Shown here: positions 6,706-63,770 of the stretch, one piece after another
Layout of the letters: the number at the start of each line of letters is the position of its first letter
Position numbering within the stretch: position 1 is the stretch's first letter
Assembly (NCBI RefSeq): GCF_004010195.1
Contig: NC_057751.1
Location: 17,709,768-17,773,767, forward strand
Length of the DNA stretch: 64,000 nucleotides
Source: Chiloscyllium plagiosum
Taxonomy: Eukaryota
Direction: 5' to 3'
The notes under the pieces: model-generated
Seen by the model: only the letters and a program-made list of their open reading frames with translations
The model's database searches: none
Told to the model about the DNA's origin: nothing
Position numbers and translations under genes: made by a program

Positions 6706-7076
6706 ACTCTGCATGTAAACAAGCCTTGAGGTTCTGCCATGCATGTTTTAATTTTCATTAGTACTTGACCTTCCAAAATGCATCACCTCACATTCGTCCG
6801 GATTAAACACTACCTGTCATATTTCTACCCGTGCCCTCCAATTATCTATATCCTGCTGTATCCTTTGAAAATCCTGCACAATAATAATGATTCCACCAAT
6901 ACTTTATCGTTCCAAACTTACTAATCAGAACAGGTACATTTTTCTCCAGTTATATTGATCATGAAAGCCGAGGTCCCAGCCATGATCCCAAGGGATCAAC
7001 ATTAGTCTCAGCCCTCCATTCTGGAAGGCATTCTTCTATTTGCCTGATGTGACTAAGTTGGCTCTGCATCCATCTT

Positions 7077-7190
7077 CAGGAATGCCCGAAACGTCGATTC
7101 TCCAGCTCCTTGGATGCTGCCTGACCTGCTGCGCTTTTCCAGCAACACATTTTCAGCTCTGATCTCCAGCATCTGCAGTCCTCACTTTCC
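7077..7190 (+). mobile_element. Penelope-derived mini-element (5'-truncated within the hammerhead motif)
   Basis: cccgaaacgtcgattctcc...cagcatctgcagtcctcactttcc matches 11151-11268; flanked by gcatccatctt (7066-7076) and gcatcaatctt (7196-7206). Confidence 0.8.
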
Positions 7191-10100
7191 CTTTGGCATC
7201 AATCTTGCCAGCTCACTCTTGATACCAAGTGACTTCCCTTATTTACTGGTCTGCCACGAATAATTTTGTCAAACGTTTGCTGATGCCCATGTCAACTTTT
7301 CCCTGATCGATCATCTATGTCACTTCCTCAGTAAAACTCGATCAATTTAGTGAGGCGTGGGCTCCCTCGCACTGAACCATGCTGTCAATTGCGAATAATT
7401 CCATTTGCTTCTAATTGTGTGTCAAACCTGTCCTGAAAAATGTCTTCCCAAACGTTTCCCTACAACCAATATTACACTCACAAGTCTTTAATTTCTAGGA
7501 TAATCCCTACTACCCTTTTTAAAGAATGGGAGAGCATTGAATACTCTTCATTCCGCTGATACATTTCCTGTGTCCATGGGGAGAGAAAGATAGATTTTAG
7601 GTCTTCAGCAATTACCTCACCTGTCTCCCTCACTATTCTGGTGTAGTTCAATCAGTGCCTAGGGAATTAATTACCTTTATACATTTTATGGCGCATAATA
7701 CATCTTCCTTTCCTTTCGCAACTTGGCTTAAAAACTCTTCATTCTCTTAGCTGAGATCATCTTCTACCAATTCCTTCATTTTGGTAAAAATACTTGGCAT
7801 TCTACCTAAACCTACTTTCTAATGATTTTTCCTGACTTCTTTTAGCCTTTCTATTTCCTTGTTAAAGTTAATTCCTTCTTTCCTTACCTACTTCAAGGCT
7901 TTGGTACTCTCTATCCTCCTATACTTTATGTGTGCTTCTTTTTCTTCTTTCTGACAAAGGTTACAACACCCCTATTGATCTACGTTTCAGGTACCTAGCC
8001 ATATCTATCATTCAATCTCACAGGAACATTCTGCACCTGAACTCATATCAAAAGCCGTTTCAACTATTCCGACATGTCCGATGTTGGTTCACCCTCAAAC
8101 AGCTGTCTCCTATCACCAATTCACCAGTTCCTGCCCAATATTGGTATAATTCGCCTTCGTCCAATTTAACAATTTCATTGGGAGTCTTCTGTTGTCCCGA
8201 TGTACGAACATTTTAAAACTCGTGGTATTACGGTCACTACTCTCTAAATACTCCAGTCTTGAAACTTCATTCATCTAGCTGCGCTCATTCCTCGTATCTA
8301 GGCCAAGGAGAATCACTTCCCTGTTTCAACTGTTTACGTGTTGTGTCTAGAAACTCTCCTGATTGGTCATTAAAAAATCCAGTCCCATCCAAACTCCGAG
8401 CATGTAATGAGTTTCAGTCAATCTCGGGGAAGTTAACATAAACCTTTGCATAAACCTTGCTATTATTAAATCTTTTGAAAATCTGTCTACAATTTTTTTC
8501 CATATTGCACTGTCAGTTGGGAGGTCTTTTATGTGCTACAAAGATTCTGATTTCACCTTTCCTACTTCTGAGTTCAAAGCAGATTGCCTTATGCACAGGT
8601 CGTCTGTTGTATCCTCCTCCAATACAGCTATGAGATGTTGCTTTACCAGTAACGCAAATCCCCCACTCCCTTCATCCCTCGAACACCTTTCAGCTGCCAG
8701 TCTTGCAACTCGTTCAACAAAAAAGATCCCAGCACTGACAAAAAGTCTTAGTTCATCTACCTTGCCTATTATTCTTCACATATTGAAACACTCTCCTCAC
8801 CTCTGATGTGTTGCTGGACCAGTGTTCATATACTCAACAATGGCAGTGGTCTCGCCCTGCTTCAAATATAGGACAGTCCTCACTCACGTTTTTTTCCCTA
8901 TAACACAAGTGAACCATTCAGCAATCATAAAAAGAGAAAAATGATATCTGAATAGAGAGCAGGTATATTTCCTCCAAGGTTACACAAACATCAAACATGC
9001 GTCACAAGTATGAGAAGTGACACAGTTGGCAATTCTCCCGGGGTTAAATGCATTCTAACTCTCCATCTGCATTGTTCACGGCAAATATTTATGAGACTAG
9101 TTTGAAAACATAAGTGGAAGCAGACGCAAAACGCACTCTACAATGTCCCCATCAAACACTTACGAGACACATAAAGCACGGATATTTGTACAGAACAAAT
9201 CACGGTCATGATCACATAGTTTCGAAAGATTGAGCCTGGTCAGCCACAGAGACGGGCTGCAAAGCGTGATCTTCATTGATAAACTCAGTGAAGCACTCTG
9301 GAAAGTTTGGCATGCAGTCAGCGTTGCGGTGACAGAGGTTTGGAGGAGACCTTGCTGTGAGTAGCATAGTGAAGCAACCTGGACAGAGTGGCGTGCAGTT
9401 CAAACTCAATGCAAAATCCTATGGACAATGCCATGCAGTGTTTAATACATTGGTAAAATCCACAAAGAATTGTTATCATCCAGCTATTGAGTGAAACAGT
9501 CCATGAGCTGTACCTGACGTTTACATTGTATTAAAACAGTCGGGCAAGAGTGACTTAAATTTAGCATCTCAGTGAAGAACTCTGGAAAAGTTCCCTGCCC
9601 TGAACGTCGCAATGAAATAATCCAGCAAGAAACACATGCTGTCAGGAGGACAGTGAATAAGTCCTGGAAGAATGGGCTACAGTCAGCATCATCGGACAGC
9701 AGAATGGGATCAATATCTGGTCGTGAGTTTCGTAGTGCACTATGCGAGTGAGATTTGCTTCAAAAGAATATGGACGTAAAACAGCCTGAAATATGGCCTG
9801 AAATCAGCGTTGTAGTAAATCAGTGTGTGAGAGGTGGCCTGCAGTTATCATCACAGGGAAAATGTTTGTAAATGGTAGCCAACCGTGAGCAACGCAATAA
9901 ATGAGACCTGGAAAATTGACCTGCAGTGTCCGTCACGGTAAAATAGTCTGCAAAGGGTTGACTGGATTTAGTATGGTATTGAAGGAGATTGGCCTGTCGA
10001 CAGCATTGTAGTGATGTAATTTAGGAAGAATCACTGCCAATGGGTGTCATAATGAAGCCGTCTTTAAAGAGTGACCTGCCGTGAGAAACACGTAGAATGT

Positions 10101-11058
10101 CTGTGAAAAGTGATTTGAAGTTAGTATCTCAGTGAAGCAGGCCATAAAAATTGTCTGGCAGTGTGCATCGCAGTGACAGTCTAAGAAGAGGATTCCTGAG
10201 GTCGATGTGGTACTGCAACAGTCTGAGACGGGTCACGTGAAGTTAGCAGAACAGTGATGCAGACTGTGGTGTGTGTCGTGCAGGGACAAATGCAGTAAAA
10301 TAGTCTGTTAAGAATGGTGATCAGTCAAGACTGCAGTAAAAATGATTGGTAAGAACAGCCTGTCGAGTTCATCGTCGATAAAAATGGAATAGGTGGTTCT
10401 GTAGCCAAAACTTCAGTGAAGGTAGATTGTGAGAACGACTTGCAATGAACATTACTGTGTAAAATTCTGCAAGGCATGGCCCACAGTCAAAGCAGTCGTG
10501 AGGGACTTTGGACTTCAGGCAAAATGATAATGAAGCAGAATGGGAGGTGTAGTCTGCAGTGAGCAATCAAGGGAAGAGATCTGGGAGGAGCGATTGAAGT
10601 TTGCAATACAGGAAAGGGAGACTGGGAATATCGGCCTGAAGACACAATTTCAGTGAAGTATTTTGGGAACAGTGGTCTGCAGTCAACATGGTGGTGGAGC
10701 AGACTGGGAATGGAATCTGCAGTCTGCAACTCAGTGTCACAGAGTATGATTTTCGGATTTCAGTGGAGCAGTCCGGGAAGACTGACCTGCAGATAATAAC
10801 TCAGTGAATGTGTCTGGGAGAGGTGGACAGCTATCAACATCACATTGAATCAAACTGGGGTAACTGGTCTCAGTGCAAATCACAATGAAAACACCTTGAA
10901 AAAGTGGACTGCAGTTTTTTCTATCATAATGAGTCTGACAGGGATGAGCGACCTGAATTCAAACTATAGAGAAAATGGCTGAGTGAAATGGACTACAGCA
11001 GTCATCAAAATGAAACCACCCACCATGATTAGCGTGAGTCAACATTACAATGATGAAG

Positions 11059-11268
11059 CTAAAAATGTGTTGCTGGAACAGCGCAGCAGGTCAGGCAGCA
11101 TCTAGGGAACAGGAGAATCGACGTTTCGGGCATAAGCCCTTCTTCAGGAAGAGCTTATGCCCGAAACGTCGATTCTCCTGTTCCCTGGATGCTGCCTGAC
11201 CTGCTGCGCTGTTCCAGCAACACATTTTCATCTCTGATCTCCAGCATCTGCAGACCTCACTTTCTCCT
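11059..11268. mobile_element. Fold-back Penelope-derived mini-element with 16-bp TSD
   Basis: 11059-11140 is the reverse complement of ~11151-11232; TSD cattacaatgatgaag (11043-11058) / cattataatgatgaag (11269-11284). Confidence 0.9.
11118..11150 (-). ncRNA. Minimal type I hammerhead ribozyme motif
   Basis: Minus strand TTC-CTGAAGA-A-GGGC-TTAT-GCCC-GAAA-CG-TC-GA: CUGANGA box, 4-bp stem II, GAAA box, UH site. Confidence 0.8.
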
Positions 11269-12995
11269 CATTATAATGATGAAGTCAAAGAAGAAAAGTC
11301 TGCAGTGAATAACTCAGAGAAACAGTCCGGAAGAGTGACCTGCTGTCAGCATCATAGTAGATCAGGCAGCAAAGAGAGGCCTGCAATCAATATTGCAGTG
11401 ATGCAGATTGGCATCACGTCAGTAATGCAGTGAAGCAATCTAGCATGAGTGGCCTTCAGTGACCATCACAGTGAACCATCGAGGAAGAGTAACAGTCTTG
11501 GAGAAGTGTACCACAGTTAGCACCGTGGTGAAATAATTTACAACGTGTCGCCTAGAGCGAGCATCTTCAGAAAGCAGACAAGTAAGAGTTGACTGCAGTG
11601 AGCATTGCAGAGAAGCAACCTGGAAGAAGTGACAGACTGGCAGAATCAGAGTAAAATAGCCTGAAAAGTTGGGCCCACGATCAGAATCACAATAAGTAAC
11701 CTAGGAAGAAGGGCATGTGGGGACGCTTTCTGTTACGGCTGACCATGTGTTGCATCTGCATTGTATTAGCGTTCTGTTTCATTGAAGCAAAGTCGCTTAT
11801 GACTGAAGAGATCAGTGCTGTAGAGACAGACCAGTCATAGAGGTCACATCTATATGCGATAGTTGATCTGCTAGAATGTCTGCACTCAGCATGTCTGCTG
11901 CAGTGCTCATCAGCTTCTTTGCCCCTGTTTCGAAGTGTTGCTTCAGGGTGCTTCTCCATCTCGTGCAATCAGATGCATGTCTCTTCTAGGAACTACATAC
12001 CGATTTCATATCGCTCATATAGATGTCATTGAAGCCCTGATTGGGACGTCCAGTGGATAACTTCCCGGATGGAAGCTCTCCATAAAGGATATCCATTGGG
12101 ATGTGGCTATCCTCCAATTGTGGAAGTGGCCCGGCCAGTTTAGTTTCTGTTGCTTGTGCAGAGTGCAGATGCTGCGAAGGCCAATGCGAGATAGAGCAGT
12201 GGTGTTGCATATTCTGTCTTGCCAGGACATGTCCAGGATGAGGCGGATACTCCTCTAAAGGAACGTGTTCAGTCTTCTCTCCTGTCTGCAATATATAGTC
12301 CAAGTTTTAGTGCCACACAGCAGTGTGCTTATGTTTTCACGATGGTACAGCCAGGATACATAAACTGATGGATGACATTGAGTTCAGGGACATCGAAGTT
12401 GATGAATTGCGGTCCCTCTGTGTCCTGTCCCAGGACACTCGTCTTCTTCAGACTGATAGTCAGCCCAAAATTCTTGCACGCATGAGAGAGGCAGTCTATC
12501 AGTAACTGGAGTTGCTGATGTTTGTATGTTGCAACAGCAACATCATCGGCAAACAGCATGCCCCTGATGATCGTCGGACATATATTTTGCCATGACTCTG
12601 AGGCAGTCCAGGTTGAAGAACCTGCCGACTGATCTGGTGCCTTGCTGAATTCCCTCCGTTGCGGTGCCAAATACATGTTTCAGGAGCACTGCGAAAAAAA
12701 TCCTGAAGTGTGTGGGAGCAAGAATACAGCCTTGTTTGATGCAGCTGTGGATGTTGAAAGCCTCAGAAGAGCTGTCATTGGACTGCATGGTCCCCTTCAT
12801 GTTAGCGTGGAAGGATACTGACATGGTCAGCAGTTTCGTGGGGGTAGCTGATCTTCAGGAGGTCATTTCTTGAAAAAAAAGTCCTTTCTGCTGACCCGGT
12901 TTAACACATTGTTTGAGGTTCATAAAGTGGTGTACAAGGGCTTTTGCTGTTCTCTGCCCTTCTCCTGCATTTGGGAAGGGAAAAGTTCATGTCTT

Positions 12996-13834
12996 AGAAC
13001 ATAGAACATAGAACATAGAAGAATACAGCGCAGTACAGGCCCTTGGGCCCTCGATGTTGCGCCGATCCAAGCCCACCTAAACTACACTAACCCACTATCC
13101 TCCATATACCTATCCAATGCCCTCTTAAATGCCCATAAAGAGGGAGAGTCCACCACTGTTACTGGCAGGGCATTCCATGAACTAACGACTCACTGAGTGA
13201 AGAACCTACCCCTAACACCAGTCCTATATCTACCCCCCCTTAATGGTGGCCCAGGGACAAGCACCAACGCAGACTCACCTCAGATCCCACGAGACTCTAC
13301 CTTTTGTAGCAGCCTGCCGTAAGATGTGAAGCGATCCAGAAGAGATTACTGACGCAAAGGTGACTACACTTACCTGGGTGGCAACTTTCAGATATCTGTG
13401 TACATGGACACCAAGATCCCTCTGCTCATCCACACTACCAAGTATCCGACCATTAGCCCAGTACCCCATCTTTTTGTTATTCTTCCCAAAGTGAATCACC
13501 TCGCACTTAGCTACATTGAATTCCATCTGCCACCTTTCTGCCCAGCTCTGCAGCTTCTCTATATCCTGCTGTAACCTGCCACATGCTTCCTCACTGTCAA
13601 CAACTCCTCCGACTTTCGTGTCATCCGCAAACTTGCTCACCCAACCTTCTAACCCCTCTTCCAGGTCATTTATAAAAATGACAAACAGCAATGGTCCCAA
13701 AACAGATCCTTGCGGAACACCGCTAGTGACGGCACTCCATGAAGAAACTTTGCCATCAACTACTACCCTCTGTCTTCTTCCATCCAGCCAATTCCTAATC
13801 CAAACCTCCAACTCACCCTCAATGCCATATCTCC
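12996..13834 (-). mobile_element. Relatively young 5'-truncated CR1 with internal replacement; 5-bp TSD
   Basis: ORF 13275..13811 with SGVPQGSVLGP and SKFADDTK; (TTCTATG)n tail at 12996-13020; gtctt at 12991-12995 and 13835-13839; RTE frame RSIED|MNFS resumes across it. Confidence 0.9.
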
Positions 13835-13999
13835 GTCTTCTATTGACCTTTTAGCTCGGACGTCGCAATGTGCCTCTGGGTCGTCAACATTCTGCCAGTT
13901 TCTGCAGGCGAGTCAAGATGGCTCGATCAAAGGCTTTGCCGACAGTGTTGAGGAGAGAGATGTATCTGTAGTTGTTGACGTCGCTTCCATCGACCTTGG

Positions 14000-14822
14000 C
14001 AGATGGAGTTTAATTTAGATAAATATTGTGCTGCATTATGGGAAACCTAAACCTAGCAGGACTTATACACTTAGTGGTATGGTCTTTGGGAGTGTTGCTG
14101 AACAAAGAGACCTTGGAATGCAGTTTCATAGCTCCTTGAAAGTGGAGTCACAGGTAGATGGGATAGTGAAGAATGCGTTTGATATGCTTTCCTTTTATTG
14201 GTCAGAGAATTGACTACAGGAGTTGGGAGGTCATTTTCCAGCTGCACAGAAGATGGGATCGGCCATTGGTGGAATATTTCGTGCAATTCTGGTCTCCTTC
14301 CTATCTGAAAGAACTGTGAAATTTGAAAGGGTTCCAAAAGGTTTACAAGGATGTTGCCAGGCTTGGAGGATTTGAGCTATAGGGTGAGGTTGAATAGGCT
14401 GGGGCTGTTTTCCCTGGAGTGTCAGAGGCTGAGGGGAGACTTTATAGAGGTTTACAAAATCATGAGGGGCATGGATCGAATAAATAGTCAAAGTCTTTTC
14501 CGTGGAGAGGAATGTCCAGAGCCAGAGGGCATAGTTTTAGTGTGAGAGAGGGCAAAGACATAAAAGAGACCAAAGGTGCAACTTCTTTCATTCAGAGGGT
14601 TGTACGTGTATGGATTGAGCTGCCAGAGGAAGTGGTGGAGTCTCGTACAATTGCTACATTTAAGAGGCATCTGGATAGGTTGATGAATAGAAAGAGTTTG
14701 GAGGGATAAGGGTCAGGTGTTGGCAGGCGGGACTAAATTGTGTAGGATATCTGTTCGGCATGGACGTGTTGGACTGAAGGGTTTACTTCCGTGCTGTAAA
14801 TCTCTATGACTGTATGACTATA
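14000..14822 (+). mobile_element. 5'-truncated CR1 LINE
   Basis: EQRDLG, LSYRVRLNRLGLFSLE..RLRGD, QRVVRVWIELPEEVV; ctctatgactgtatgacta tail. Confidence 0.9.
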
Positions 14823-15339: not shown

Positions 15340-15640
15340 CTCTCGAAAGTCTCTGAAAACTGCTGCATAAGGTCTGGCTGGGAAGAATGGAAGAATGGCT
15401 TGCAGCGTGCGTTACTGGAAATTAGGCCAGGCAGAGTAGCATGCAGGCAGCATCGCAGTAAATGAAGTTTGAGAAGCGTGAACTCCAGTCAAAATCGCCA
15501 GAAAGTGTTTAGGATGAGTGACCTGCAGTGATCATCAAAATAAACCACCCTGCAAAATCGCAGCATTCGATAAATTCTGCAGTGCAAATGTTGACACATA
15601 TATGAATGAGACAGGTAGAAACACACTTCGCATTTGTAGT
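15340..15640. repeat. Continuation of the ~41 bp minisatellite
   Basis: Units such as gaagaatggcttgcagcgtgc and gagtgacctgcagtgatcatc match the 9270-11690 array. Confidence 0.55.
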
Positions 15641-31398: not shown

Positions 31399-32528
31399 CA
31401 AAATGAATGAGAAACAACTGGAACCAAACGTCCTGTCTATTAAGAAAAGTGTGGCTGTTTCTGATATTAGAACAACTGTCAAATGAATGGAATACACTGT
31501 TGACAATGAATCGCACGCTCTGCAGATACGTTTAGTGATGGACAGTGAATAATCTGCTCCCTCTGGGAAGCTCTAAATAAAGCTGATTCAGCAATGAGCT
31601 GGGAGCCTAAATGGCAGTTTGATTATGCAGGAGTTTGAGAGTAGAGTTCAGAAATAAGGTCTCAAGGATACAAGAAGGCACTGGCAGCAAAAAGTTGGTT
31701 TGAAGCACGTCTACTTCAATGCCAGGAGCATCCAGAATATGGCAGGTGAATTGACAGCATGGGTTGGTCCTTGGAATTTCGATGTTGACACATGGGTAGT
31801 GAAGTGACAGGAATGGCTATTACAGGTTCCGAGATTTAGATGTTCCACAAAGAGCAAAGAAGGTGGTGAAAGTCGTGTGTGTGTGTGTGTGTGGTATTTG
31901 TTAGTCAAGCACAGTACTATGATTGGAGAAAGGACATTTGAAGGAAATGGACAGCATTGAAATGTGAAGTTTATACAAGAAACCGCTTCTGTGAATGCTT
32001 TATAAGTGTGCACTTGCCAGGTAGGGAGGAGGTTGTTGCATGCGGGAGCCTTGGTATACAAAAGAAGTTGAACCTCTTGTCAAGAGGAAGAACAAGGCTT
32101 ATGTTAAGATGAGATATGATGGCTCATTTCAGCCTCTGGAAAGTTAAAAGTTATCACCAAAGACCTAAAGAGAGAGCTAAGAAGAGCAAACAGGGGCCAC
32201 GAGAAGTCGTTGGCAGATAGGATAAAAGAAAGGCCTAAGACATTCTGTAAGTATGCCATGAATAAAAGAATGACTAGATTAAGAATAGGGACAATCATGA
32301 ATTGTAGTGGAAAGTTGCGCATGGAGTCAGGGGAGATATAGGAATTGTTAAATGAATATTTTTTGTCAGTTTTCACACAAGAAAAAGACAAGGTTGTCGA
32401 CGAGAATAGTGACATATAGGCCACTGGAATAGATGAGATTGAGGTTCGGAAAGTGGAGGTGTTAGCAATTTTGGGTAGTTTAAAAAGCCCCCTGGGCGGG
32501 ATAACATTTACCATAGGATTCTCTGTGA

Positions 32529-35358
32529 TCAAAGTTTATGCGAAGATTTGTAGCTCGGGTGCTCGTTGTTGTGGTTCTGTTCGCCGAGCTGGAAGTTTTT
32601 GTTGCAAACGTTTCTTCCCCTGGCTAGGCGACATCATCAGTGTTTGGGAGCCTCCTGCGAAGCGCTTCTTTGATGTTTCCTCCGGTGTTTATAGTGGTCT
32701 GCCCCTGCCGCTTCCGGTTGTCAGTTTCAGCTGTCCGCTGTAATGGTTGGTATATTGGGTCTGTCTGGTTTGCCCTATGATAGTAGTGTTGTCCCAGTCG
32801 AATTCATGTTGCTTGTTGTCTGCGTGTGTGGCTACTAAGGAGAGCTGGTTCGTGTCGTTTCGTGGCTAGTTGATGTTCATGTATGCGGATTGTTAGCTGT
32901 CTTCCTGTTTGTCCTATATAGTGTTTAGTGCAGTCCTTGCATGGTATTTTGTACACTACATTCGTCTTGCTCATGTTGGGTAAAGGGTCCTTCGTTCTGG
33001 TGAGTTGTTGTCTGAGCATGGCTGTTGGTTTGTGTGGCGTTATGAGTCCTAGGGGTCTCAGTAGTCTGGCAGTCAGATTCGAGATGCTCCTGATGTATGG
33101 TAGTATGGCTAATCCTTTTGGTTGTGGTATGTCCTCGTTCCATGGTCTTTCTCTTAGGCATCTGCTGATGAAGTTGCGCAGTTATCCGCTTTTGGCGAAT
33201 ACCTTATATCGGTGTTCATCTTCTTCTTTTTGCAGTCCTGGTGTACTGCAGTGTGTTGTGGCCCTTTTGAATAGTGTCCTGATGCAGCTTCGTTTGTGTG
33301 TGTTGGGGTGGTTACTTTCATAGTTTAGGACTTGGTCTGTGTGTGTGGCTTTCCTGTATACTCTTGTAGTGAATTCTCCGTCTGGTCTTCCCTGTACCAT
33401 CACGTCTAGGAATGGGAGTTGGCTATCCTTTTCTTCTTCTCTCGTGAATCGGATTCCTGTGAGTGTGGCGTTGATGATCTGGTGTGTTTTTTTCTATTTC
33501 CGTGTTTTTAATGATTACAAACGTGTCATCGACATATCTGAACCAGAGTTTGGGTTGAATTTGTGGTAGGACTGTTTGTTCTAACCTTTGCATAACTGCC
33601 TCTGCTATGAGTCCCGAGATTGGTGATCCCATGGGTGTTCCGTTGATTTGTTCGTATATCTGGTTGTTGAATGTGAAGTGTGTTGTGAGGCACAAGTCCA
33701 GTAGTTTAAGTATGCCGTCTTTGTTGATAGATTCAGCGTCCTGTTTTCTGTTCTGTTGTCCAGTAGGTTGGCTATTGTTTCTCTGGCTAGGGTTTTGTCA
33801 ATCGAAGTGAACAGTGCCGTCACGTCGAATGATTTGGATCCGCTGACCAGGTGTTTCAGTTTCTGTTGTAGTTCTTTGGCCAGTTTGTATAATGGTGTCC
33901 CTGGTAGTGATACTATGGGTCTGAGTGGGATGTCTGGTTTGTGTACTTTAGGTAATCCATAGAATCTGGGGGTGTTGTTGCTTTCCGGTTTCATTCTTTG
34001 TAGGTCAGCTCTAATTATCTGTCCGTTTTTTTTGTAGATTCCTTAGTGTGTTATTTATCCTATTGGTGAGCTGTGGGGTGGGGTCAAACTCCCTCTTTTG
34101 GTAGTTGTTGGTATTTCAAGTAGTTGTTGTGCTTTTTGGATGTAATCAGATTTAAGTAGTTGTTGTGCTTTTTGGATGTAATCAGATTTATCTAGGATAA
34201 CCGTCATTCTGCCTTTATCTGCTGGTAGTATGATTATGTTCTTATCGTTTCTTAGTGATTTCAGTGCTTCCCTCTCCTTGGTGTTGAGGTTATGTGTTTG
34301 TCTTTTCCTTATTATCATAGGTACGACAGTTTGTCTCACTGTTTGTTGTGTCTCTTCTGTCAGTCCATTGTTCCTGAGTGTGCCTTCTAGTGCTGCTAGG
34401 AAGTCTGCTGTCTTGGCGTCCCTGTAGTTGTAGTTGAGCCCCTTGGCCAGTATTGTTCTTTCCACGTCTGTGAGCTGTCTGTGGGAGATATTTTTAACCC
34501 AGGTGTGTGTTGTAGTGTCCTCTTTGTTGTGTGTTAGTTTGGCCATTTTTTTCTTTTAGTGCCGTTTTTTTGCGGAGTGTAGTCCTGTTCTGTCCTATGG
34601 TGAGAGCCTGTTCTATGGTCCGGGTCCATTCCTGATTCGTGGTTTTTGAAATTAACGACTTTTGGCGCGCAATTTCATGTCTGTATCTGTGAAGTCGGTT
34701 GTGTGCGTCTGTGATCATTACCTGGATCATCATGAATCCGTTCTGCTGGGCTGTTTCCCTGGCTTGTGGGTTGTTGACTGGTAGTCTGTATCTGACACAT
34801 TGTGGAAGGATTCGATTCTTTCGGCATTCATGCAGGAACCGGAGTTGTTCGTATGTGGCGCTTAGTCGGTTAGCGCAGGATTCCCATTTCCTGGCTTGTC
34901 TCGCCCGTAAGTGTTCAAAGTTTGTGCGAAGATTTGTAGCTTGGGTGCTCGTTGTTGTGGTTCTGTTCGCCGAGCTGGAAGTTTTTGTTGCAAACGTTTC
35001 GTCCCCTGGCTAGGCGACATCATCAGTGCTTGGGAGCCTCCTGCGAAGCGCTTCTTTGGTGTTTCCTCCGATGTTTATCGTGGCAAGCCAGACAGAGAAC
35101 AGCCAGGGAATTCCTAGAGGCATGGCATTCATCCACAAACTCCATCAACAAACACATCGACCTGGACCCAATATACCAACCACTACATTGGACAGCTGAA
35201 ACTGACAACCGGAAGCGGCAGGGGCAGACCACTATAAACACCGGAGGAAACATCAAAGAAGCGCTTCGCAGGAGGCTCCCAAGCACTGATGATGTCGCCT
35301 AGCCAGGGGACGAAACGTTTGCAACAAAAACTTCCAGCTCGGCGAACAGAACCACAAC
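32529..35358 (-). mobile_element. Penelope-like element (Poseidon/Penelope type), near full length, frameshifted
   Basis: ILPADKG, PRFYGLPKVHK..PLRPIV, SFDVTALFT, GTPMGSPIS, RYVDDTF, YRKATHTD, GIY-YIG (VVYKIPCKDC..YIGQTGR..RIHEH); pLTRs 32529-32760 and 34915-35077 (direct) and 35078-35358 (inverted); TSD attctctgtga 32518-32528 / 35359-35369. Confidence 0.95.
35283..35322 (+). ncRNA. Minimal hammerhead ribozyme motif in inverted pLTR
   Basis: GCA-CTGATGA-T-GTCGCCT-AGCC-AGGGGAC-GAAA-CG-TT-TGC; further copies on - strand at 34990-35029 and (mutated) 32604-32643. Confidence 0.75.
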
Positions 35359-37923
35359 ATTCTCTGTGAAGCCAAGGAGGAGACTGTGGAGCCTTTAGCC
35401 TTGATCTTTATGTTGTCATTCTCTACATAAATAGCGCCAGAAAACTGCTGGGTAGCAAATATTGCCGATTTTAAGAAGTGGCGTGAAAGCAAACCTGGTA
35501 ATTACAGAGCAGTGAACCTTACTTTGGTTGCGAGTGAAGTGCTGGAAAGGGTTATAAGCGATAGGATTTATAATTGTCTAGAAAGGAATAAATTGATTCT
35601 GGCCAGTCAAAGCGGTTTTGTGAATGGTAGGTCATGCCTCACAAATCTTATTGAGTTCTTTCAGAAGGCGACCAAACAGGTGGATGGGGGTAATGTAGTT
35701 GATGCGATATATGTGGATTTCATGAAGGCATTCAATAAGGTTCCCCATGATAGGCTATTGCGCAACATAGTAAGGCATGGGATTGAAGGTGATTTATGTT
35801 TTGGATCAGAAATTGGCGAACTGAAAGAACACAGATGGCGATGATTAATTATAAATATTCATCCAGGTGTTCAGTTCCTAGTGGTTGACAGAAGGGAATT
35901 GTTTTGGGTCCACTGTTGCTTCTAATTTTTGCGAATCACCTGGATGAGGGTATAGAAAAATGGGTTAATATACGTATATGTGACATTAAGGTCGGAACAG
36001 ATGTGGATAGTGACGAAATATATTGTTGGTTACAAGTGGACAGAGAAAAGCTGCAGAACGGGGCTGAGTGTGCCAAATTGTGTTTAATGTGGAAAAGTGT
36101 GAGGAGATTCACTTTGGAAGGACAAGCAGGAGTGCAATGTACTGGACTAATGGTAAGATTCTTGGTAGTGTAAGTGAACAGTGAGATCTCGGTGTCCATG
36201 TATATAGATCCTTGAAAGTTGCCACCCAGGTTGATAGGGTTGCTCAGAAGACTGATCATGTAGAGGAATTGAGTCGTGGAATGATGAGGTCATGCTGCAG
36301 CTGTACAAAATTCTGGTGTGGCCGCACTTGGAGTATTGTGTGCGATTCTGGTCCTCGCATTAAAGGAAGAATATGAAAGCGTTGGAAAGTGTTCAGAGGA
36401 GCTTGACTACGATGTTGCCTGGTATGAAGGGATGGTCTCATGAGGAAGGTTGACGGATATGTGGCCTTTTTTTTTAGCGCGAAGAGGTGACTTAATTGAG
36501 ATGTATAGGATAATAAGTGGGTGGAATAGGGTCAACTATGAGACCATTTTTCCTCGGATGGTGATATCTAACACGAGGGACATAGCTTTAACCTGCCGGA
36601 TGATAGACATTGGACAGATGTCAGAAGTAGTTTCATTACTCAGATTGTAGTGGGGGGTGCAATGCACGGCCTACAATAGTCGTCAACTCGCCAACTTTCA
36701 GGGCATTTAAATGCTCATTGAATAGGCATATGGTCAAGAAAGTAATACAGTAGGTTAAATGGGCTTCCGATTGATTTCACAAGTCCGTGTAAAATCGAGG
36801 GCCAAAGGGCCTATACTGTGCTTAGTGTTCTTAGTCCAATGTTCCATATTCCACCTTCTTCCCCAAGAATCAAAATTTCTGCCCACGATCATTCGCTGTT
36901 TGGTAAAAGCGGCACTCGCAGGAGGTTCTCACATTACTTCTCCTAAAAAAAAGGTCTTTACATTACAGCAACTTCAGGTGCGCACTGGACATAGTTTTGG
37001 AAAGCTTTCCAAAAGTTCATTCCAAACATTGAGAGGTGTGTCAAACATGAAAAGAGACTTTAAAAAAATTCTGGTGACACGAGCTGCACTTAGTCCAGCT
37101 CCTGCCCACTTTCGAAGAAGCCTTGCCATTCTCAGCTGTGTGACTGTATTTTCGGGCTAATGCCTCACAACACTTCCACTTTAACAGCTAAGGTGCAAGA
37201 CTCTGAAAGCTCAAGACTGCGAATAATGCTAACTGTTTGCAACTAAACGAATACCCTCATTCCCAACACAAAACGACAGTTGAGAACAATGCTTCAGTTT
37301 TTATTGTTGTTAGATGGTACATTACTGAGGTGCAATAAACTTTGTTTTAACTGGCAGCTTTTGCTAATCCAGCAAAAATTATAGACCTGATATAGCGAAA
37401 TCACAATCTCCATGCAGTCGGTTGGGAGTGCTTTCCACCATCAAGTTTTATTTAAGGCAAAGTTGTGTGATTATTTCTTGGGACTTATGATATAAGTAAA
37501 CTATAACAGTGATGTGCACGCTCCCTCCGTTATGTTTCTATCATTTACTGTGTTTTATTTTGCAATACGTAAAACTCTTCATCAATGTGCAAAAGTTCAA
37601 GTTAATGAAAAGGTTGTTGAATTAAATCCCACCATCACGTCTTATTAACTAAGTAACAACAAATTCGCACAGATCAGCCACTTCCAGTGATCTCGACTGG
37701 CTGATTGAACACAGGCTGTGAAATAATTCCTCCTGATCCACAAAGATCGATTTTGGATTCTCCATTGCTGACAAAATTATGAATGAGTCTTCACAATTTT
37801 GATAGAGCCAGGTTCAAATCTGCTTGTGTCGTTGAACTGAGCAGTTGTTTCTTTTTATGATAGAGCAAGAACATAATGCATACCTGTTCACTGACTCCTC
37901 CAGCCGTTCGAAGTTAGGACTTA

Positions 37924-39075: not shown

Positions 39076-39159
39076 ATTGAATTGGTTCAATTAGGACAGA
39101 CAAGAAGTAGTTCCCCATGTTATTTGGTTTATGCATAAATAACTTTTCAACACATCTGC

Positions 39160-39580
39160 TTTAGAAAGCATGTTGTGAAACTTGAAAAGGATCGGAAAAT
39201 ATTTAGAAGGATGTCACCAGGGTTGGAGGTTTTAAGTTATTTGGGGTGGCTGAATCGGCTTGGACTCTTTTCCCTGTAGTGTTGATAAAATCATGAGAGG
39301 CATGGATTGGTAGAATAGCCGAGGCCTTTTCACAGTCTTGGGGGAGTCCAGAACTACAAATTACAAGGAGGTGCGATAATGGAATGAGCTGCGTGACCAA
39401 GTGTTGGAGGCTGATACAATTATCACATTTAAAAGCCATCTGGATGGGTACATGAATAGGAAAGGTTTGCAGGGATTTGAGCCAAATAGAGGTAAATCGG
39501 GCTAGATTAATTAATGATATCATATCGTCATGCCACAGTGTTCCAAGGAGTCTGTTTTCATGCTAGACAGTTCTATGAGT
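39160..39580 (+). mobile_element. CR1 3' fragment
   Basis: CR1 C-terminal/3' UTR similarity to 14330-14810. Confidence 0.75.
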
Positions 39581-39764
39581 CGATTTGAATGCTGAGTGAA
39601 TTGATGCAAGAATTGATCTGTAGCTTCAGGAATTTTTGAAAAAAATTAAGACTAGGTCAATTTAAACTCCACTTGAAAGTTAATAGTCGTGGGAAAAAAA
39701 AATCTTCAGATAATTCTAACTCTGAACCGTGGAGATTTTCTTTATTATAACTGATAGCATCACA

Positions 39765-49554: not shown

Positions 49555-50789
49555 ATAGATTAGGGTTTAACCTGAACTTGTAAGGGAGTTACTGGAACAC
49601 TTCGATGTTTCCGACAAACAGACAAGTGCATTGCAAATTGAGAAACTTAAATTACACTTGACGAAAATGGAGTCAGAAGATAAGCAAGTGAAGAAAGAGA
49701 GAGAAAGCGAAACAGAGAGAAGAAAAGGGAGAAAATGAGAGGCCCTTTGGAATGAATTTTTTTCAAAAATTGACAGGACCAAAGTCGGAGATCTCACACT
49801 TCGATTATGTTTGGAGGTGAGCGAGAGATTAAATCAAGTCGTTGAATTAGCTAAACAACAGCGAAAGATGGCACAGTGTAGAATGAAGCAGGTGGCATAT
49901 AAAAGCTCTCAGATTCGGACGTTTATCCCAGAGGTTGACGTGTTATTACTGTTACAATTGATAAAAGACCTCTTCAAAGCCAGATTTAGTCGTCCCTATC
50001 AAATAGAGAAGACGTTGAGTCAGGTGAAATCTCTAGTAAAGATGCCAGACAAGACAAAACGGCACCAGGCATGTCATATGTCCATGTTGAATCCATACTA
50101 TGAAGGATGGAAAGAACTGGAGAAACAGTTGTTCGTTACTGCCCCGCAGAGTGAGGAATCCATTGCAGACGATGTAGATTTGATGTGCCACAAAAATAGA
50201 TTTAAAAATGTAGAGATTCTCGAGAAGTGGGATAGTTTCTTAAACTGTCTGTCTGATGAGCCAATAACGCAGTTCAAAAGATTGTTACTGCAGTATAAAG
50301 ACATATGTAAGAATAAAAAGGGGAGGATTAATGTTATTGTATCTGAAGTAGACGTAGGGAATACTGTCTCGTTAAAGCAACACCCCTATTAGCTTAATAC
50401 TTTCAAAAAAGGAGGTGGACGCTATGCTCGACGAGATAATCGAACTGAGGTAGAGCAAGTGGAGTTCGCTGATTGTCTTAGTTCCCAAATCGCACTTGGT
50501 GTCAGCAATTTTGCGTGGATTATCAGAAGATAAATCCGTTACAAAATCGGACTCACATTCAGTTCTGGGATTGGGATACTGCATAGAGAAAGTAGTACAA
50601 GCCAGTTTCATCATCAAGTTGAACTTACTGGCAGGTACCTTTCGCTGGAACAGCGACAGAAATTTCTGCGTTTGTAATCCTAAATGGGTTATATAAATTT
50701 AAAATGTTGCCTTTTGGAATGAAGAACAATCCTGCCATATTCCAAAGACACATGAACAGACATGTAGCTATGTCAATAAACATTTGGTA

Positions 50790-51295
50790 GATTACTGACC
50801 CATTGCTGAAAACCTCAACTTCCCCTCCCATTCCACCAAGGACAGGTAGGCCCAGGGCCCACTACATCGCCACAATCTAGCACCCGATGCATGGAGGAAG
50901 AACACGTCACCTTCCGCCTTGGGATCCTCCAAACACAATGCATCAATGTGAATTTCAAACGTTTCCTCATTTCCCATCCCTCCACTGTATTCAGGGTCCA
51001 ACCTTCCAAATCAGCATTTCGCTCATGACCTGTCCTTTCCACCTTTCTGCTTCACCCTCCTCTCCGATCTATCACCGTTATCCCTACTTCTATCTACTGT
51101 TAGATACATTGCCCACAACTCCACTGCCTCTCATTTATCTCTCCACACCCTTGGCTCGCACGTCTCATTCCTGATGAAGGGTTCTTGCTTGAATCATCGA
51201 GCCTCCTGCTCCTCGGAATCTACCTGACTTGTTTTGCATTTCCAGCACATCACTCTTAACTCTGATGTTCAGCATCTGCAGTCCTCACTTTTTCT
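50790..51295 (+). mobile_element. 3' end of a Neptune-like Penelope element (endonuclease C-terminus + pLTR)
   Basis: MEEEHVTFRLGILQTQCINVNF, CT-rich 3' UTR, then cattcctgatgaaggg..cagcatctgcagtcctcacttt, similar to the mini-elements. Confidence 0.8.
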
Positions 51296-53954
51296 GAACA
51301 AACTTTGCATTCTACTTGGACGATGTAGTGATCTTTAGTGAGTCCTTGAAATATTAGATGATAGAGTTGGCCGAACTCTTTAGAACATAGAACATAGAAC
51401 AATACATCACGGAACAGGCGCTGAGGCCCTCAAAGTTGCGTCGACCTATGAACAACTCTTAGCCTATACACAGCAATCAGCATTCACGTAGTCATCCAAG
51501 GATTATTTAAATCTCCCTAATGTGGCTGAGTTAACTACATTGGCAGGTAGGGCAGTCCACGCCCTAACCACACTCTAAGTAAAGAAGCTTCCTCTGACAT
51601 TTGTCTTATATCTATCACACCTCAAATTTGTAGTTATGTACCCTCGTACAAGCTGACGTCATCATCCCAGGAAAAACGCTTCCAATGTCTAACCTATCTA
51701 AGCCTCTGATCATCTTGTATGTCTCTATCAAATCCCCTCTTAGTCTTCTTCTTTCCAATGAGAACCGACCCAAGTACCTCAGCCGTTCCTCATAAGACCT
51801 GCCCTCCAGACCAGGCAACAGCCTGGTAAATCTCCTCTGTACCTTTTCCAATGCTTCCACATCCTTCCTGAAATACGGCGACCAGAACTGTAAACAATAT
51901 TACAAGTGTGGCCGCATTAGAATTTTGTATAGTTGCAGTGTGATATTGCAGCTCTGGAATTCAAATCCTTCACTAATGAAAGCTAACACACCGCTTGCCT
52001 TTTTGACAGCTCTATCAACCTTGGTAGCAACTTTCATGCATCTATGTATGTGGACTCCAAGGTCCCTCTGCACATCCACAATACCAATACACTTTCCATT
52101 GATCCAGTAATCTGCCTCCCTGTTATTCTTCCCAAAGTGAATCACCTCACATTTAGCTGCATTGAACTCCATTTGCCACCTCTCAGCCCAATTCTGCAGT
52201 TTATCCATGTCCTCCTGCAACCTATAACATTCTTCCAATCTGTCCACTAATGCACTGACTTTAGTGTTATCTACAAATTTACTAATCCATTCACCTATGC
52301 CTGCGTCTAAGTCATTTATAAAAACGACTAACAACAGTAATTACAAAACAGATCCTTTTGGCACACCGCTAGAAACCAGACTCCAGGCTGAATATTTTTC
52401 ATCAACCACCACTCGCTGCCTTCTTTCAGAAAGCCAGTTTCTAATCCAAACTGCTAAATCACCCTCAATCCCATACCTCTGCATTTTTCCAACAGACGAC
52501 CATGTGAACCTTTAGCAAAAGCTTTACTGAAAACCATGTATATCACGTTAACTGCCCTACCCTTATCTATATACTTCGTCACCTTCTCAAAAAGCTCAAT
52601 GAGGTTTTTGAGACACGACCTGGCCTTGACGAAATCATGTTGACTATCTGAAATCAAATTGTTGCTTGATACATGATTATTAATCCTAACTCTTGTATCC
52701 TTTCTAAAAACTTACCTACAACAGAAGTAAGGCTTATTGGTCTATAATTACCAAGGTAATTTCTCCTGCCCTTCTTGAAGAAGGACACAACATTTGCAAT
52801 CCTCCAGTGCTCTGGTACTAAATCTTTGGTCAATGACGACTCAAATGTCAAAGCCAAGGGCGCTGCTATCTCCTCCCTGGCTTCCACAGAATTCTTGGAT
52901 AAATCTCATCCGCTCCGGGGGACTTGTCTACTTTCACTCCTTCTAGAATTGATCATACCTCTTCGTAACTAACTTCGATACTTTCTCGCCTAATATCTCG
53001 TACCTGATTGGTCTCCTCTACAATATACTCCTTTTCCTGAGTGAAACCGATGAGAAATGTTCATTTACCACCAATCCGATTTCCACAGGGTCCTCACTCA
53101 ACTTCCCACTTCTTTCTTTGACTGGCCTTATTCCTTCCCTGGTCATCCTCAGATACCTTTAGAAAGCTTTAAGGTTCTCCTTTATTCCATTTGCTAAAGA
53201 GTGCTCGTGTCCTCTCTTTGCTATTCTTAACTCTCCCTTTAAATCCTTCCTAGCTGATCTGTAACTCTCCATCGCCTCATTTCAACCGTCTGTGTCTCAT
53301 CGACACACAAGCCTCCTCCTTCCGCTTAACAAAAGATGCAATTTCTTTCGTAAATCACAGTTCGTTAACTTATCACTTCCCCCTGCCTATAGGGACGTAT
53401 CTATCTAGGATACACAATATCTGATCCTTAAAGCAGCTCAACATTTCCATTGTCTGCATCCCCTGCATTTGCTTCCCCTTTCTAGTCATCATAATTCATG
53501 CCTAATCGCCATATAATTGCCCTTGCCCCATCGATAACTCTTGACCTGTGGCATGTACCTTTCCCTTTCCATCGCTAATCTAAACGTAACTGAATTATGG
53601 TCACTCTTTCCAAAGTGCTCACCTACAACTAAATCAAACATCTGGTCTGATTCATTACCGAGCACCAAATCCAATGTGGCCTCCCCTCTTGTCGGCCCCT
53701 CGACATACTGTGTCAGGAAACCCTCCTGTAGACTTCGGACAAAAAAACTGATCCATCCGACGTACTAGGTGTGTAGCATTTCCAGTTAATGTTGGGGAAG
53801 ATAAAATCCCTCAGAATGACCACTCTGTTCCTTTCACTGGTACCCAGAATAACTTTGCCAATCCTCTCCTCCCTTTCCCTGGAACTCTGCGGAGGCCTAT
53901 ATATAAAAAAAAATACTCCAAGCAGTGTGACCTCTTCTCTCCTGTTTCTAACCC

Positions 53955-54881: not shown

Positions 54882-56790
54882 ATGGGTTTGCGAGTATCTA
54901 CAGGACTGATTGAATCGCTGGCCCCCGGAACAGGTCAATCACATTCTGTTGTGCATGCCGGACCCCGTCCTTTGGCCCCATTGGGGGCTATCTTGAAGCG
55001 CCATGGTAAATATGTTCGTTGCAAGAGTAAGGTAGGAGAACCTCTCATCCCCCCCCGGGCTCGCTGGCTGACACCGACTGGAAGGAGACTGGTGACAGCC
55101 GGTATCTTATCCCTTTCACCTCCGATCTGTATGGTTGGTCCCATGGCAATTAGCCTTGTGGGGGCTCTTTTCGGTTGGATAAGATTGATTACTGTGGTCT
55201 AGATCAGAGTGCTTCTGGAAAAGCACAGCAGTTCAGGCAGCATCCGAGGATCAGGAAAATCGACGTTTCTGGCAAAAGCCCTTCATCAGAAATAGAGCTC
55301 AGGAAGCTGCTTGACTAGCTGTGCTTTTCCAACACCACTCTAATCTAGACTCTGGTTTCCAGCATCTGCAGTTCTTGCTTTAACCTAAGATTGATTACTG
55401 GCTTGTGAACATTGAGGGTGGGTACAGGGATCACTCCTGGGACACCAGGTACATGGTCGTGTGTCTGGAGAAGTTTAAGGAAGTTGATAAAGACCATCAG
55501 TCCCCCAAGACTAAAAACCGCTCTCAGCATTCCAGTGAAGCTGGCGGCCTTTCCGCTACTGCGGATCCCGCTTATACCGCCCCTCCACCTTATTCCACCC
55601 AGTATCCCAAACTTGCCACCCCTACCTCAGACTCTGACTCTCAGGTTGATGAAATTGCTGCTCTTGTGGCCTCACGGCTGCAAGGTCGGGATGCTGCTCA
55701 AGATGCTGCAGCAGCTGCTCTTCCACACCAACCCGAAACCTCACATGCTTCGCAGGGTCCAAGTGCTCGTCTTGCTGGTTCTGATGCAACGGTTCCTGAT
55801 TCCAGCTCAGAGGCTGCTGTCTTCCTTTCCACTGATGGTGCTACTACTGGGCTGCGTAGCCACTTCGACATGACTCTCCAATCCCAGGACACGATGAAAT
55901 ACGCCACCCTGTCTCCCCGGATCATGATTGGTGACGTCCCTTTTGACACGTGCTGAGGTCCGGGCTATGCTCCAGGATGCCCCCGACCCGATTAAGCATT
56001 CTCCTTCCTTTTGTGGTGGGCTCGTTCAGGTCTGCGATATTTACAACTGCCTGCCTCAGGATGTGAACACTTTGCTGTGTTTGGCGTACGCGGCTCGCTG
56101 GGCAGCTGTCAACGGCTCCCCGGTAATCCCTGCAGAGATGTAGGACAATGGAGACGCGCAGCCTGACTGACTGAGAGACTAGGTTTAACCCATTATTTTG
56201 GCAGCAGCGAGACAGCAGGCAGACTTCTGTGAAGTCACCTGCTGTCTGCAGAAATCTGATGAATCCTTCCCTGATTTTCTTGCTCGCTTTAAGGAGGTTT
56301 GGGAGTCGACTGCAGGCATCCTCCTCGCGACTAATGACAAATTGGCCTCCCAGACTCTGATTCATTGCATGCAGCCCCGACATGTCCATACTTAAAAGTC
56401 TCTTAATCTTGATTGGCAAACAAAAACTTGCCATCATTTCTCTTATTTCTCTCACTAACATGGTGCATAAGGGCCTTTTCGAAACCAGGAAGTGACAGGA
56501 TGTCATTTCCCCACTTAACGCAGGCAGGGTTTCAGAATCAGGCTAGTAGCACGAGGAAGCGGGTCGGCAGCAGATATTAGCCAGGGTCAGTGCAGTTCGT
56601 GTGGGAACTGTGGTCACTGGTCACAGGACTGCCGCGCTTCACCCCCTCAGCGGGTTCCCCAGCAGCAACCTGTTTTCCCCATGCAGCGGCAGCCTTTGCC
56701 GGCCAGCTACTTTGTTGGCAACCCCGTCCCCGCTACTCTGCAAGCCTCGGGCAGCCGCATGAGGGAGGTTTTGCAGGCGACTTCAATATG
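54882..56790 (+). pseudogene. gag: ERV gag (disrupted)
   Basis: MGLRVS myristoylation consensus at 54882; YTAPPPY late domain; Q..DESFPDFLARF (major-homology-region-like); CSSCGNCGHWSQDC zinc knuckle 56591-56632. Confidence 0.85.
55195..55385. mobile_element. Fold-back Penelope-derived mini-element with perfect 15-bp TSD; hammerhead motif on - strand at 55262-55289
   Basis: TSD taagattgattactg 55180-55194 / 55386-55400; minus strand CTGATGA-A-GGGC-TTTT-GCCA-GAAACGTC. Confidence 0.9.
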
Positions 56791-62609: not shown

Positions 62610-63770
62610 TGTCAAATGTAGATGTTGATGACTGTGGGTATTGACGAGTGTTGATATTGACGAATGTTGGTGTTGACAATAGTTAGTATTGACGAATGTT
62701 GATATTGATGGATGTGGATATTGACAAAGATTTTTATAGATGAAAGTTAAGTTTGATGAATGTGGATATTGATGGAAGTGGCTATTGACGAATGTTGATG
62801 TTGACGAATATGATGTTGATTAATGTTGGTATTGATTAATGTTAGTATTGATGAATGTGGATATTGACAAATGTTTAGAGTTTATGAATTTTGGTCCTGG
62901 TGAAAGGTAGCATTGACGAATATTGATGGTGATGAATGCTGATACTGACGCGTGTTGATCCTGATTAATGTTGATCTTGACGAAAGTTGCTATTCACAAA
63001 GTTGGTATTGACGATTGTTGATATCAATGAATGTCTGTTTTGACGAAATTGGATATTGATAAACGTTCACATTGAATGTGGATGTTGAGGAATATTGATT
63101 TTGACGAATGTTGTAATTAACAAATATAGACATTGATGAATGTTAATGTTGACGAATGTCGATGTTGATTACTGTTGATATTGATTAATGTTTTTGTAGG
63201 AGAAAGTGAGGACTGCAGATGCTGGAGATCAGAGCTGAAAATGTGTCGCTGGAAAAGCGCAGCAGGTCAGTCAGCATCCAAGGAGCAGGAGAATCGACGT
63301 TTCGGGCATGAGCCCTTCTTCAGGTTATTTGTAGGTTAGATTAGTTCTTAATTGAGTCCTTTTTTTCTTCTTTTTTTCTATTTGTTGTGTTTCATTATTG
63401 TTTATTTAACATTTAATGGTGTATTAGTGTTTAATGTTGTGTTATTTTGTAAGTTTGTAAAAAATTTTTAAAAATGTCCTTTTTCTACAATAAAAATATC
63501 TATAAATATACTGAAGCATGTTGATTTTGATGAACGTTGATATTGACAAATGTTCATCTTGAAGAAAGTTGGTACTGACGAATGTTGATATTGGTGAATG
63601 TTGGTTTTGACGAATGTAGGTATTGATGAATGTTCGTATTCACAAGTATGGCTATTGACAAATATAGATATTGACGAATGTTGTTATTGACGAATATGGA
63701 TATTGAAAAATGGCGATGTTGATGAATGTTGGTATTATTGAATGTTGTATTCACGAATGTTGACACTGAT
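62610..63770. repeat. Degenerate 16-bp tandem repeat (GAYGAATGTTGATATT)n, interrupted at ~63190-63510
   Basis: Consecutive 16-mers gacgaatgttggtgtt/gacaatagttagtatt/gacgaatgttgatatt/gatggatgtggatatt. Confidence 0.85.
63199..63324 (-). mobile_element. Penelope-derived mini-element with intact hammerhead core (63296-63323)
   Basis: Minus strand CCTGAAGA-A-GGGC-TCAT-GCCC-GAAACGTC-GA; flanked by tttgtagg at 63193-63200 and 63328-63335. Confidence 0.9.

What the first reader, a model, noticed from the sequence alone, without database searches (positions are those of the whole stretch)
11043..11284. Short fold-back retroelement carrying a minimal hammerhead ribozyme (retrozyme-like PLE satellite family)
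Seen: a ~210-bp insert of two head-to-head copies of one ~130-bp unit (~80-bp stem), with a 16-bp TSD (1 mismatch). Its minus strand has an intact CUGAAGA-stem II(GGGC/GCCC)-GAAA-CG-UC core. The same unit occurs five times in this window (7077, 11059, 51171, 55195, 63199). Established: Penelope-like elements (PLEs) carry minimal hammerheads lacking a stable helix III, and these can cleave as dimers through a palindromic loop (ACGU here). Inference: this is a high-copy, non-coding family mobilised in trans by a PLE, with ends defined near the ribozyme. It would place self-cleaving RNA motifs and dsRNA hairpins in many introns. I cannot tell whether the family is already catalogued.
Basis: partly seen in the sequence, partly recalled or inferred. 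Interest (0 to 1): 0.75.

Follow-up and report, generated by a model that had tools for sequence, protein, structure and literature searches.

The report
Fold-back stub of shark Penelope retrotransposon
This 210-base hairpin insert is real and is one of very many short copies that are likely the end pieces of a known class of jumping gene (Penelope-like elements) in a shark-like genome, laid down in an already described 'inverted copy plus tail' pattern, and its ribozyme motif is predicted to be locked shut inside the hairpin, so it is likely an insertion by-product and not a new self-cleaving element.

Summary
Observation confirmed: two head-to-head arms (86 bp, 95%), a 16-bp TSD with 1 mismatch, an intact minimal hammerhead core on the minus strand, five copies in the window. 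One arm carries a 35-37 nt extra tail, the published 'inverted pLTR + tail + TSD' layout of Penelope-like elements (PLEs); an ORF-bearing PLE in the same window has the same layout. Copy 51171 runs about 400 nt upstream into a Neptune-like endonuclease remnant (no database hit confirms it). In this insert the ribozyme's stem II has folding probability 0.00. None of 8 arms starts at the cleavage site; all 3 tail-less arms end 31-32 nt upstream of it, at an initiator-like TCATT. Contigs show a very abundant repeat with a fixed 3' end and few tandem copies, so it is not a satellite or retrozyme array. No host exon was found. Most likely: two cDNAs primed from both nicks and joined by microhomology. 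This scan noted the same kind of element before (23 notes, at least 8 genomes).

The parts
11043..11058 (.). left target-site duplication (16 bp)
11059..11150 (-). inverted, tail-less arm; its inner end is at +2, where +1 is the A of the initiator-like TCATTCC just 5' of CUGA
11120..11147 (-). intact minimal type I hammerhead core; predicted cut after C at 11120; predicted to be sequestered in the hairpin
11148..11150 (.). 3-nt overlap (GAA/TTC) shared by the two arms at the head-to-head junction
   Evidence: sequence
11148..11268 (+). tail-bearing arm; starts at +10, lacks CUGA, stem II broken (GAGC)
11234..11268 (+). one-sided 35-37 nt tail; the family's fixed 3' end
11269..11284 (.). right target-site duplication
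7066..7206 (+). sister copy: 11-bp TSD (1 mismatch), arm starting at +19, and a 7-nt inverted mini-arm ending at +1
55180..55400 (.). older fold-back sister copy: exact 15-bp TSD, tail-less minus arm ending at +1, plus arm with 33-35 nt tail
63193..63335 (-). single-arm sister copy with intact core and tail, 8-10 bp TSD, starts at +4
50770..51297 (+). long decayed sister copy (about 530 bp) that interrupts an RVT_1 remnant (model positions 111-136 left, 148-169 right); ends in the hammerhead unit and tail
50799..50975 (+). Neptune-like GIY-YIG C-terminal remnant (one stop, one frameshift) inside the long copy
   Evidence: no database hit
32518..35369 (.). internal control: a different, ORF-bearing PLE (Poseidon-like) with the same head-to-head layout, one-sided ~38-nt tail, exact 11-bp TSD and another hammerhead

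Best explanation
The insert is two short head-to-head copies of the hammerhead-bearing end (pLTR) of what is likely a Neptune-type Penelope-like retrotransposon, likely built at the moment of insertion, and its ribozyme is predicted to be inactive because the core pairs with the opposite arm. Inferred steps: the element's GIY-YIG endonuclease cuts the target with a 16-nt stagger; reverse transcriptase primes from both nicks on uncleaved element RNA, at two internal start sites about 35 nt apart (hence a tail on one arm only); one cDNA runs off at a fixed boundary just 5' of the ribozyme, probably the transcript's 5' end, the other stops at a variable point; the two are joined through a 3-nt overlap and repair leaves the TSD. 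The ribozyme is a passenger inherited from the autonomous element, where it appears to be under selection.
For: Shown here: TSD, unequal arms and tail in 2 of 2 fold-back copies with a full second arm. Same layout in an ORF-bearing PLE of this window whose protein matches shark PLE-type proteins at up to E 3.5e-60. Published layout: inverted 5'-truncated copy, 30-40 bp tail on one end, TSD (PMC8557442; PMC3846280). In vitro, an anole PLE protein cuts and extends both strands, starts RT at two internal sites that bound the tail, and uses uncleaved RNA (PMC11167929). The 51171 insert holds two blocks in the register of Neptune endonucleases (by eye against Fig. S2 of PMC8557442); 4 of 5000 local shuffles reach its score. 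Both arms of this insert share three letters that copies 63199 and 7077 lack. Stem II probability is 0.00 in the insert and 0.97-1.00 in single copy 63199; forcing the core costs 26 against 1.6 kcal/mol. 0 of 8 arms start at the cleavage site (+33); 3 of 3 tail-less arms end at +1/+2; tail-bearing arms end at +4, +10, +19, about +42 and about -400. Contigs of two organisms: fixed 3' end, and many joints from the boundary to varied points of the other arm. Variable sites in laid reads and contigs avoid the core: 2 of 22 constrained positions (both CpG) against 4 of 6 free ones, Fisher p 0.0096.
Against: The endonuclease remnant has no database support, and window-wide its motif score is reached in 26 of 100 shuffles; it rests on position and register, with motif spacing chosen after I saw it. 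The long copy is only 72-76% identical to the young copies, so an autonomous partner of the young subfamily was not seen. Short copies ending near the boundary are very numerous (488-670 contigs per run, 935, with flank-like agreement 0.34-0.36), which a self-propagating short unit would also give. The transcript start is not measured. Core against the rest of the unit is only p 0.069, and reads are clipped near the end of the reference. Stem II shows no covariation among 7 arms.
Confidence: 0.72

Rival explanations
1. The ~127-nt unit is a non-autonomous, SINE-like PLE derivative: it would be transcribed from its own internal promoter and copied in trans, with rare head-to-tail dimers acting as retrozymes.
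For: Very many copies end just 5' of the core. Head-to-tail joints exist: 39 and 12 contigs in X1, 2 RNA reads in X21. pLTRs can move other sequence in trans (PMC3846280), Penelope has an internal promoter (PMC2377424), and retrozymes are reported to derive from pLTRs (bioRxiv 10.64898/2026.07.22.740005).
Against: Tandems are about 1.5 per 100 3' junctions (51 against 3306 contigs). Junctions differ from copy to copy. No end lies at the cleavage site, and RNA reads show no pile-up of ends (a weak test). A long copy with an endonuclease-like remnant exists.
Confidence: 0.13
2. Same PLE origin, but the palindrome would arise by fold-back self-priming (on an antisense template, or by a nascent cDNA folding back), not by two independent cDNAs.
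For: Proposed for head-to-head PLE repeats in PMC3846280. The arms share diagnostic letters and meet with almost no spacer.
Against: In copy 55195 and in many contig joints the arms are offset by tens of bases at the junction, and the 7-nt mini-arm of copy 7077 overlaps the target end. In vitro extension of both strands gives a simpler source.
Confidence: 0.12
3. A MITE or fold-back DNA transposon, or a miRNA hairpin, with a chance ribozyme-like motif.
For: 86-bp inverted repeat; weak Rfam miRNA matches.
Against: Single-arm and long copies exist; TSD lengths vary from 8 to 16 bp; arms are unequal; the motif matches 3 times against 0 in shuffles; miRNA scores are far below cut-off.
Confidence: 0.03

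Closest known systems
Inverted-pLTR + tail insertions of endonuclease-positive Penelope-like elements (Pen2a_Av in PMC3846280; layout figure in PMC8557442)
   Same: Head-to-head inverted copy, 30-40 bp tail on one end only, overlap at the junction, TSD of about 8-16 bp, initiator-like motif in the pLTR.
   Different: Here no ORF is left: both arms are only 92-121 nt, and many copies stop at one boundary.
Minimal hammerheads of metazoan PLE pLTRs (PMC4209133)
   Same: Type I core, extra base between A9 and G10.1, G10.1-C11.1 pair, palindromic 15.2-16.2, no helix III; mostly single motifs, some 100-700 bp apart on opposite strands.
   Different: Helix I here is only 2 contiguous pairs; no shark family is named in the parts read; activity untested.
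Poseidon of Anolis carolinensis (PAc), in vitro mechanism (PMC11167929)
   Same: Two-ended layout and tail fit both-strand extension and two internal RT starts; ends are not at the ribozyme cut.
   Different: Different clade (remnant here looks Neptune-like); that paper does not, in the parts read, describe run-off at a 5' boundary.
Metazoan non-LTR retrozymes (PMC7229834; bioRxiv 10.64898/2026.07.22.740005)
   Same: Non-coding, type I hammerhead, PLE-related, long TSDs; reported in one chondrichthyan genome.
   Different: Those are head-to-tail tandems, mostly of 150-450 bp with canonical ribozymes, expressed as circles; this insert is head-to-head with one buried minimal core.

Membership tests
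EN+ Penelope-like element insertion | pLTR with minimal type I hammerhead | tested here: met
EN+ Penelope-like element insertion | adjacent inverted 5'-truncated copy | tested here: met
   recurrent in contigs
EN+ Penelope-like element insertion | 30-40 bp tail on one end only | tested here: met
   35-37 nt (11059) and 33-35 nt (55195)
EN+ Penelope-like element insertion | target-site duplication of variable length | tested here: met
   16, 15, 11 and 8-10 bp in 4 of 5 copies; unclear in the fifth
EN+ Penelope-like element insertion | linked RT + GIY-YIG ORF | tested here: inconclusive
   C-terminal remnant only, by register and local shuffle; no database hit; no RT seen
Neptune clade | RT phylogeny and CxxC linker | not testable with these tools
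   no RT of this family in the window and no genome held; only the E...N spacing fits Neptune rows
Non-LTR retrozyme | head-to-tail tandem of at least two units with complete ribozymes | tested here: not met
   0 of 5 window copies; a minority of contigs show it
Non-LTR retrozyme | unit ends or circle junction at the cleavage site | tested here: not met
   0 of 8 arms start at +33
Non-LTR retrozyme | self-cleavage and abundant circular RNA | not testable with these tools
   needs a cleavage assay; the poly(A) single-cell run shows no pile-up of ends but is not suited
Catalogued Dfam/Repbase family | match to a curated consensus | not testable with these tools
   neither library is on hand

The most novel reading that the evidence does not exclude
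These stubs are a genome-wide fossil record of how PLEs integrate: the tail-less arm is a 'strong-stop'-like run-off cDNA that ends at the transcription start just in front of the hammerhead, while the tail-bearing arm is the variably truncated one, so each insertion is made from two cDNAs on uncleaved RNA and the ribozyme does not define element ends. Thousands of such junctions in one shark genome would make the open question of PLE integration directly testable.
Probability: 0.45. Interest if true: 0.5.

Novelty: new member of a known kind. Interest (0 to 1): 0.27.

Why it matters
As a single copy it is ordinary repeat debris. As a class it offers many independent junctions for testing how Penelope-like elements insert and whether their hammerhead has any role in setting ends. 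Fold-back copies that are read through would give 80-90 bp double-stranded RNA, and the 3' end looks like a splice acceptor, so host effects are possible but were not shown.

Tried and rejected
No genome is held, so no genome-wide count or tree. Rfam: no hammerhead model reached E<=1. Pattern scans of prokaryotic and viral collections gave 1, 9 and 0 matches; all 10 loci match over only 20-34 bases, and the one translated (L001) lies in a bacterial gene: rejected as chance. Protein searches for the endonuclease remnant: nothing; two phmmer hits are tandem-repeat proteins whose scores come from summed repeats: rejected. 14 PLE-type proteins did not hit the remnant by tblastn. The open frame through the tail found no protein. 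Stem II covariation: none in 7 arms. No RNA holder of the locus was listed; run X22 laid nothing: no test. Empty site: no listed joint skips the insert (547 joints not shown); two organism-B contigs start at the right TSD with no element letters, a weak hint only. A-to-I editing: T>C changes are more frequent in one read orientation, but so are non-editing changes, and no matched DNA was laid: rejected as evidence. A 9-bp TSD candidate for the long copy conflicts with the RT reading frame of the flanks and is not relied on. The paper on dimeric cleavage (PMC5785218) is not held; I saw it only as cited in PMC6765202.

Full report
Observation. The insert is as described: 210 bp (11059-11268) between 16-bp direct repeats with one mismatch, made of two inverted arms, 86 nt at 95%. 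The minus strand holds an intact minimal hammerhead core at 11147-11120; the pattern matches 3 places in the window and none in 100 shuffles. Five copies are present. The insert sits in a degenerate ~41-bp repeat, in which only one other 16-mer pair of this quality was found among 2284 positions, and the repeats abut the arms exactly, so I accept the TSD. Rfam has no hammerhead hit here.

Host. No genome is held. The protein of a second PLE in the window is 84% identical to a Hemiscyllium ocellatum protein and 55-88% to eight Chiloscyllium punctatum proteins among 14 hits, so the window is likely from a bamboo or epaulette shark (inference). Penelope LINEs are listed for the whale shark genome (PMC8455134, one passage). 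20 of the 30 open frames of 130 aa or more, or parts of them, were scanned with Pfam; the only hits above cut-off were retroelement domains. The intron claim is therefore untested.

Anatomy. The arms are unequal. The plus arm runs 35-37 nt beyond the point where the minus arm starts; copy 55195 (exact 15-bp TSD) shows the same 33-35 nt excess. The arms overlap by 3 nt at the junction. This is the published PLE layout: an inverted 5'-truncated copy and a 30-40 bp tail on one end (PMC8557442, passages and supplement parts 54-55), with a TSD and a junction overlap (PMC3846280, passages). The window supplies a control: a different PLE at 32518-35369, with RT and GIY-YIG remnants and another hammerhead, has the same head-to-head layout, a one-sided ~38-nt tail and an exact 11-bp TSD; its pLTR is unrelated to our unit. 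The fold-back is thus a trait of PLE insertion, not of a special family.

Link to a coding element. Copy 51171 is the end of an insert of about 530 bp that splits an RT remnant (RVT_1 positions 111-136 on the left, E 0.00018; 148-169 on the right, E 0.15). Inside it, 50799-50975 translates in two frames to PIAENLNFPSHS and EEHVTFRLGILQTQCIN, in the register of the second His block and the E...N block of the four Neptune rows of Fig. S2 in PMC8557442 (by eye). A motif score built from those rows ranks this site first of 13 candidates in the window; 26 of 100 window-wide shuffles reach the same score, but only 4 of 5000 shuffles of the 409-nt stretch itself do. Database searches gave no support. 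I take it as likely, not proven; this copy is also old (72-76% to the young ones).

Ribozyme. In a minus-strand transcript the antisense arm comes first and pairs with the core: stem II probability 0.00, against 0.97-1.00 in single copy 63199; forcing the core costs 26 against 1.6 kcal/mol. The plus arm lacks CUGA. There is no second core in the same orientation, so no cis dimer. Helix I is only two contiguous pairs. Minimal PLE hammerheads are inactive as monomers and weak as dimers (PMC4209133, parts 1-2 of 4), and the anole one needs protein and is dispensable for insertion in vitro (PMC11167929, parts 1-2 of 4). Family-wide, sites varying in at least 8 of 100 laid reads or contig depth fall on N7 and loop II (4 of 6 free positions) and on 2 of 22 constrained positions, both CpG (p 0.0096); against the rest of the unit the contrast is p 0.069, and clipping near the reference end favours apparent conservation. 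No covariation is seen in 7 arms. The motif is probably selected in the source elements, not in this copy (inference).

Ends. Numbering +1 as the A of TCATTCC just 5' of CUGA (initiator-like; consensus recalled, and a TCACT initiator-like motif is noted in a rotifer pLTR), the cut would be at +33. None of 8 arms starts there. The 3 tail-less arms end at +2, +1 and +1; the 5 tail-bearing arms end at +4, +10, +19, about +42 and about -400. Contigs of 5 DNA or unlabelled runs from two organisms agree: 47,765-90,706 contigs laid per run, summed depth some 10^4 to 10^6 times that of the flanks (not a copy number), a 3' end fixed to three adjacent places (3306 contigs in X1), and 488-935 contigs per run that leave the reference at the 5' boundary with flank-like agreement of 0.34-0.36 after a few shared letters. 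Caveats: the reference itself ends there, collapsed young copies are under-counted, a faint trace of the upstream sequence persists in the loose-end consensus, and the tables are cut (1481 and 507 rows not shown). Joints link that boundary to many different points of the other arm (15 shown, 547 not). Head-to-tail joints are seen in 39 + 12 contigs, and tandem copies of the tail alone also occur. In RNA run X21, 2758 of 12,955,460 reads were laid, in both orientations, with no pile-up of ends and smooth depth across the cut site; the library is not suited to see cleavage.

Mechanism. Shown: layout, TSD, ends, predicted folding. From the literature: both-strand cleavage and extension, two RT starts bounding the tail, uncleaved template; transcripts start inside the pLTR (PMC6765202 and PMC2377424, passages). 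Inferred: two cDNAs, one a run-off at the transcript's 5' end, joined by microhomology. Rivals are a SINE-like self-propagating unit (0.13) and fold-back self-priming (0.12).

Novelty. The layout and motif are known. I found no paper on this shark family in six full-text searches; subscription papers, Dfam and Repbase were not searchable, and the supplements of the 2026 retrozyme preprint (part 1 of 5 and passages read), which covers one chondrichthyan, were not seen and may list it. PMC6155905 and PMC7229834 were read as passages. This scan holds 23 notes on such elements in at least 8 genomes, 8 shown; they are unchecked, and I took from them the transcription-start reading and one paper, which I then tested only in part. 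Verdict: a new member of a known kind, interest 0.27.

Noticed in passing
window 11255-11268 and 63197-63212; contigs: The family's fixed 3' end reads CTCACTTTCTCC followed often by TAG or CAG, like a splice acceptor with a pyrimidine tract; sense copies in introns could be exonised. Not scored.
   Followed up: no
window 11189-11269 (+): A frame starting at ATG CTG CCT is open to the end of the tail in 3 young copies, and the only indel in the alignment is 3 nt; it may be the start of the PLE ORF. A protein search found nothing.
   Followed up: partly
window 32518-35369: Poseidon-like PLE, internally deleted and frameshifted, with three pLTR copies, a different minimal hammerhead (one copy mutated), inverted arm, tail and 11-bp TSD.
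   Followed up: yes
window 9270-11700 and 15430-15560: Degenerate ~41-bp tandem repeat (best period 41) with no long open frame; the insert lies inside it.
   Followed up: partly
window 62567-63800: Degenerate 16-bp satellite array; copy 63199 is inserted in it.
   Followed up: no
window 54700-61900: Decayed LTR-retroelement or endogenous-retrovirus-like stretch with weak zinc-knuckle, RT and RNase H matches below cut-off; copy 55195 lies at its start.
   Followed up: no
window 49739-51380: Decayed Gypsy-like pol region (weak SH3_Tf2-1 and RVT_1 matches), interrupted by the long PLE copy.
   Followed up: partly
table 5: The 33-35 nt tail occurs alone as tandem duplicates and as a whole inverted arm joined to a unit starting at the 5' boundary, so the tail behaves as a discrete module.
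   Followed up: no
window 13000-14750, 28000-29230, 36000-47750, 51500-53750: Many CR1-like LINE fragments on both strands (RVT_1 and Exo_endo_phos hits in two frames; family name recalled).
   Followed up: no
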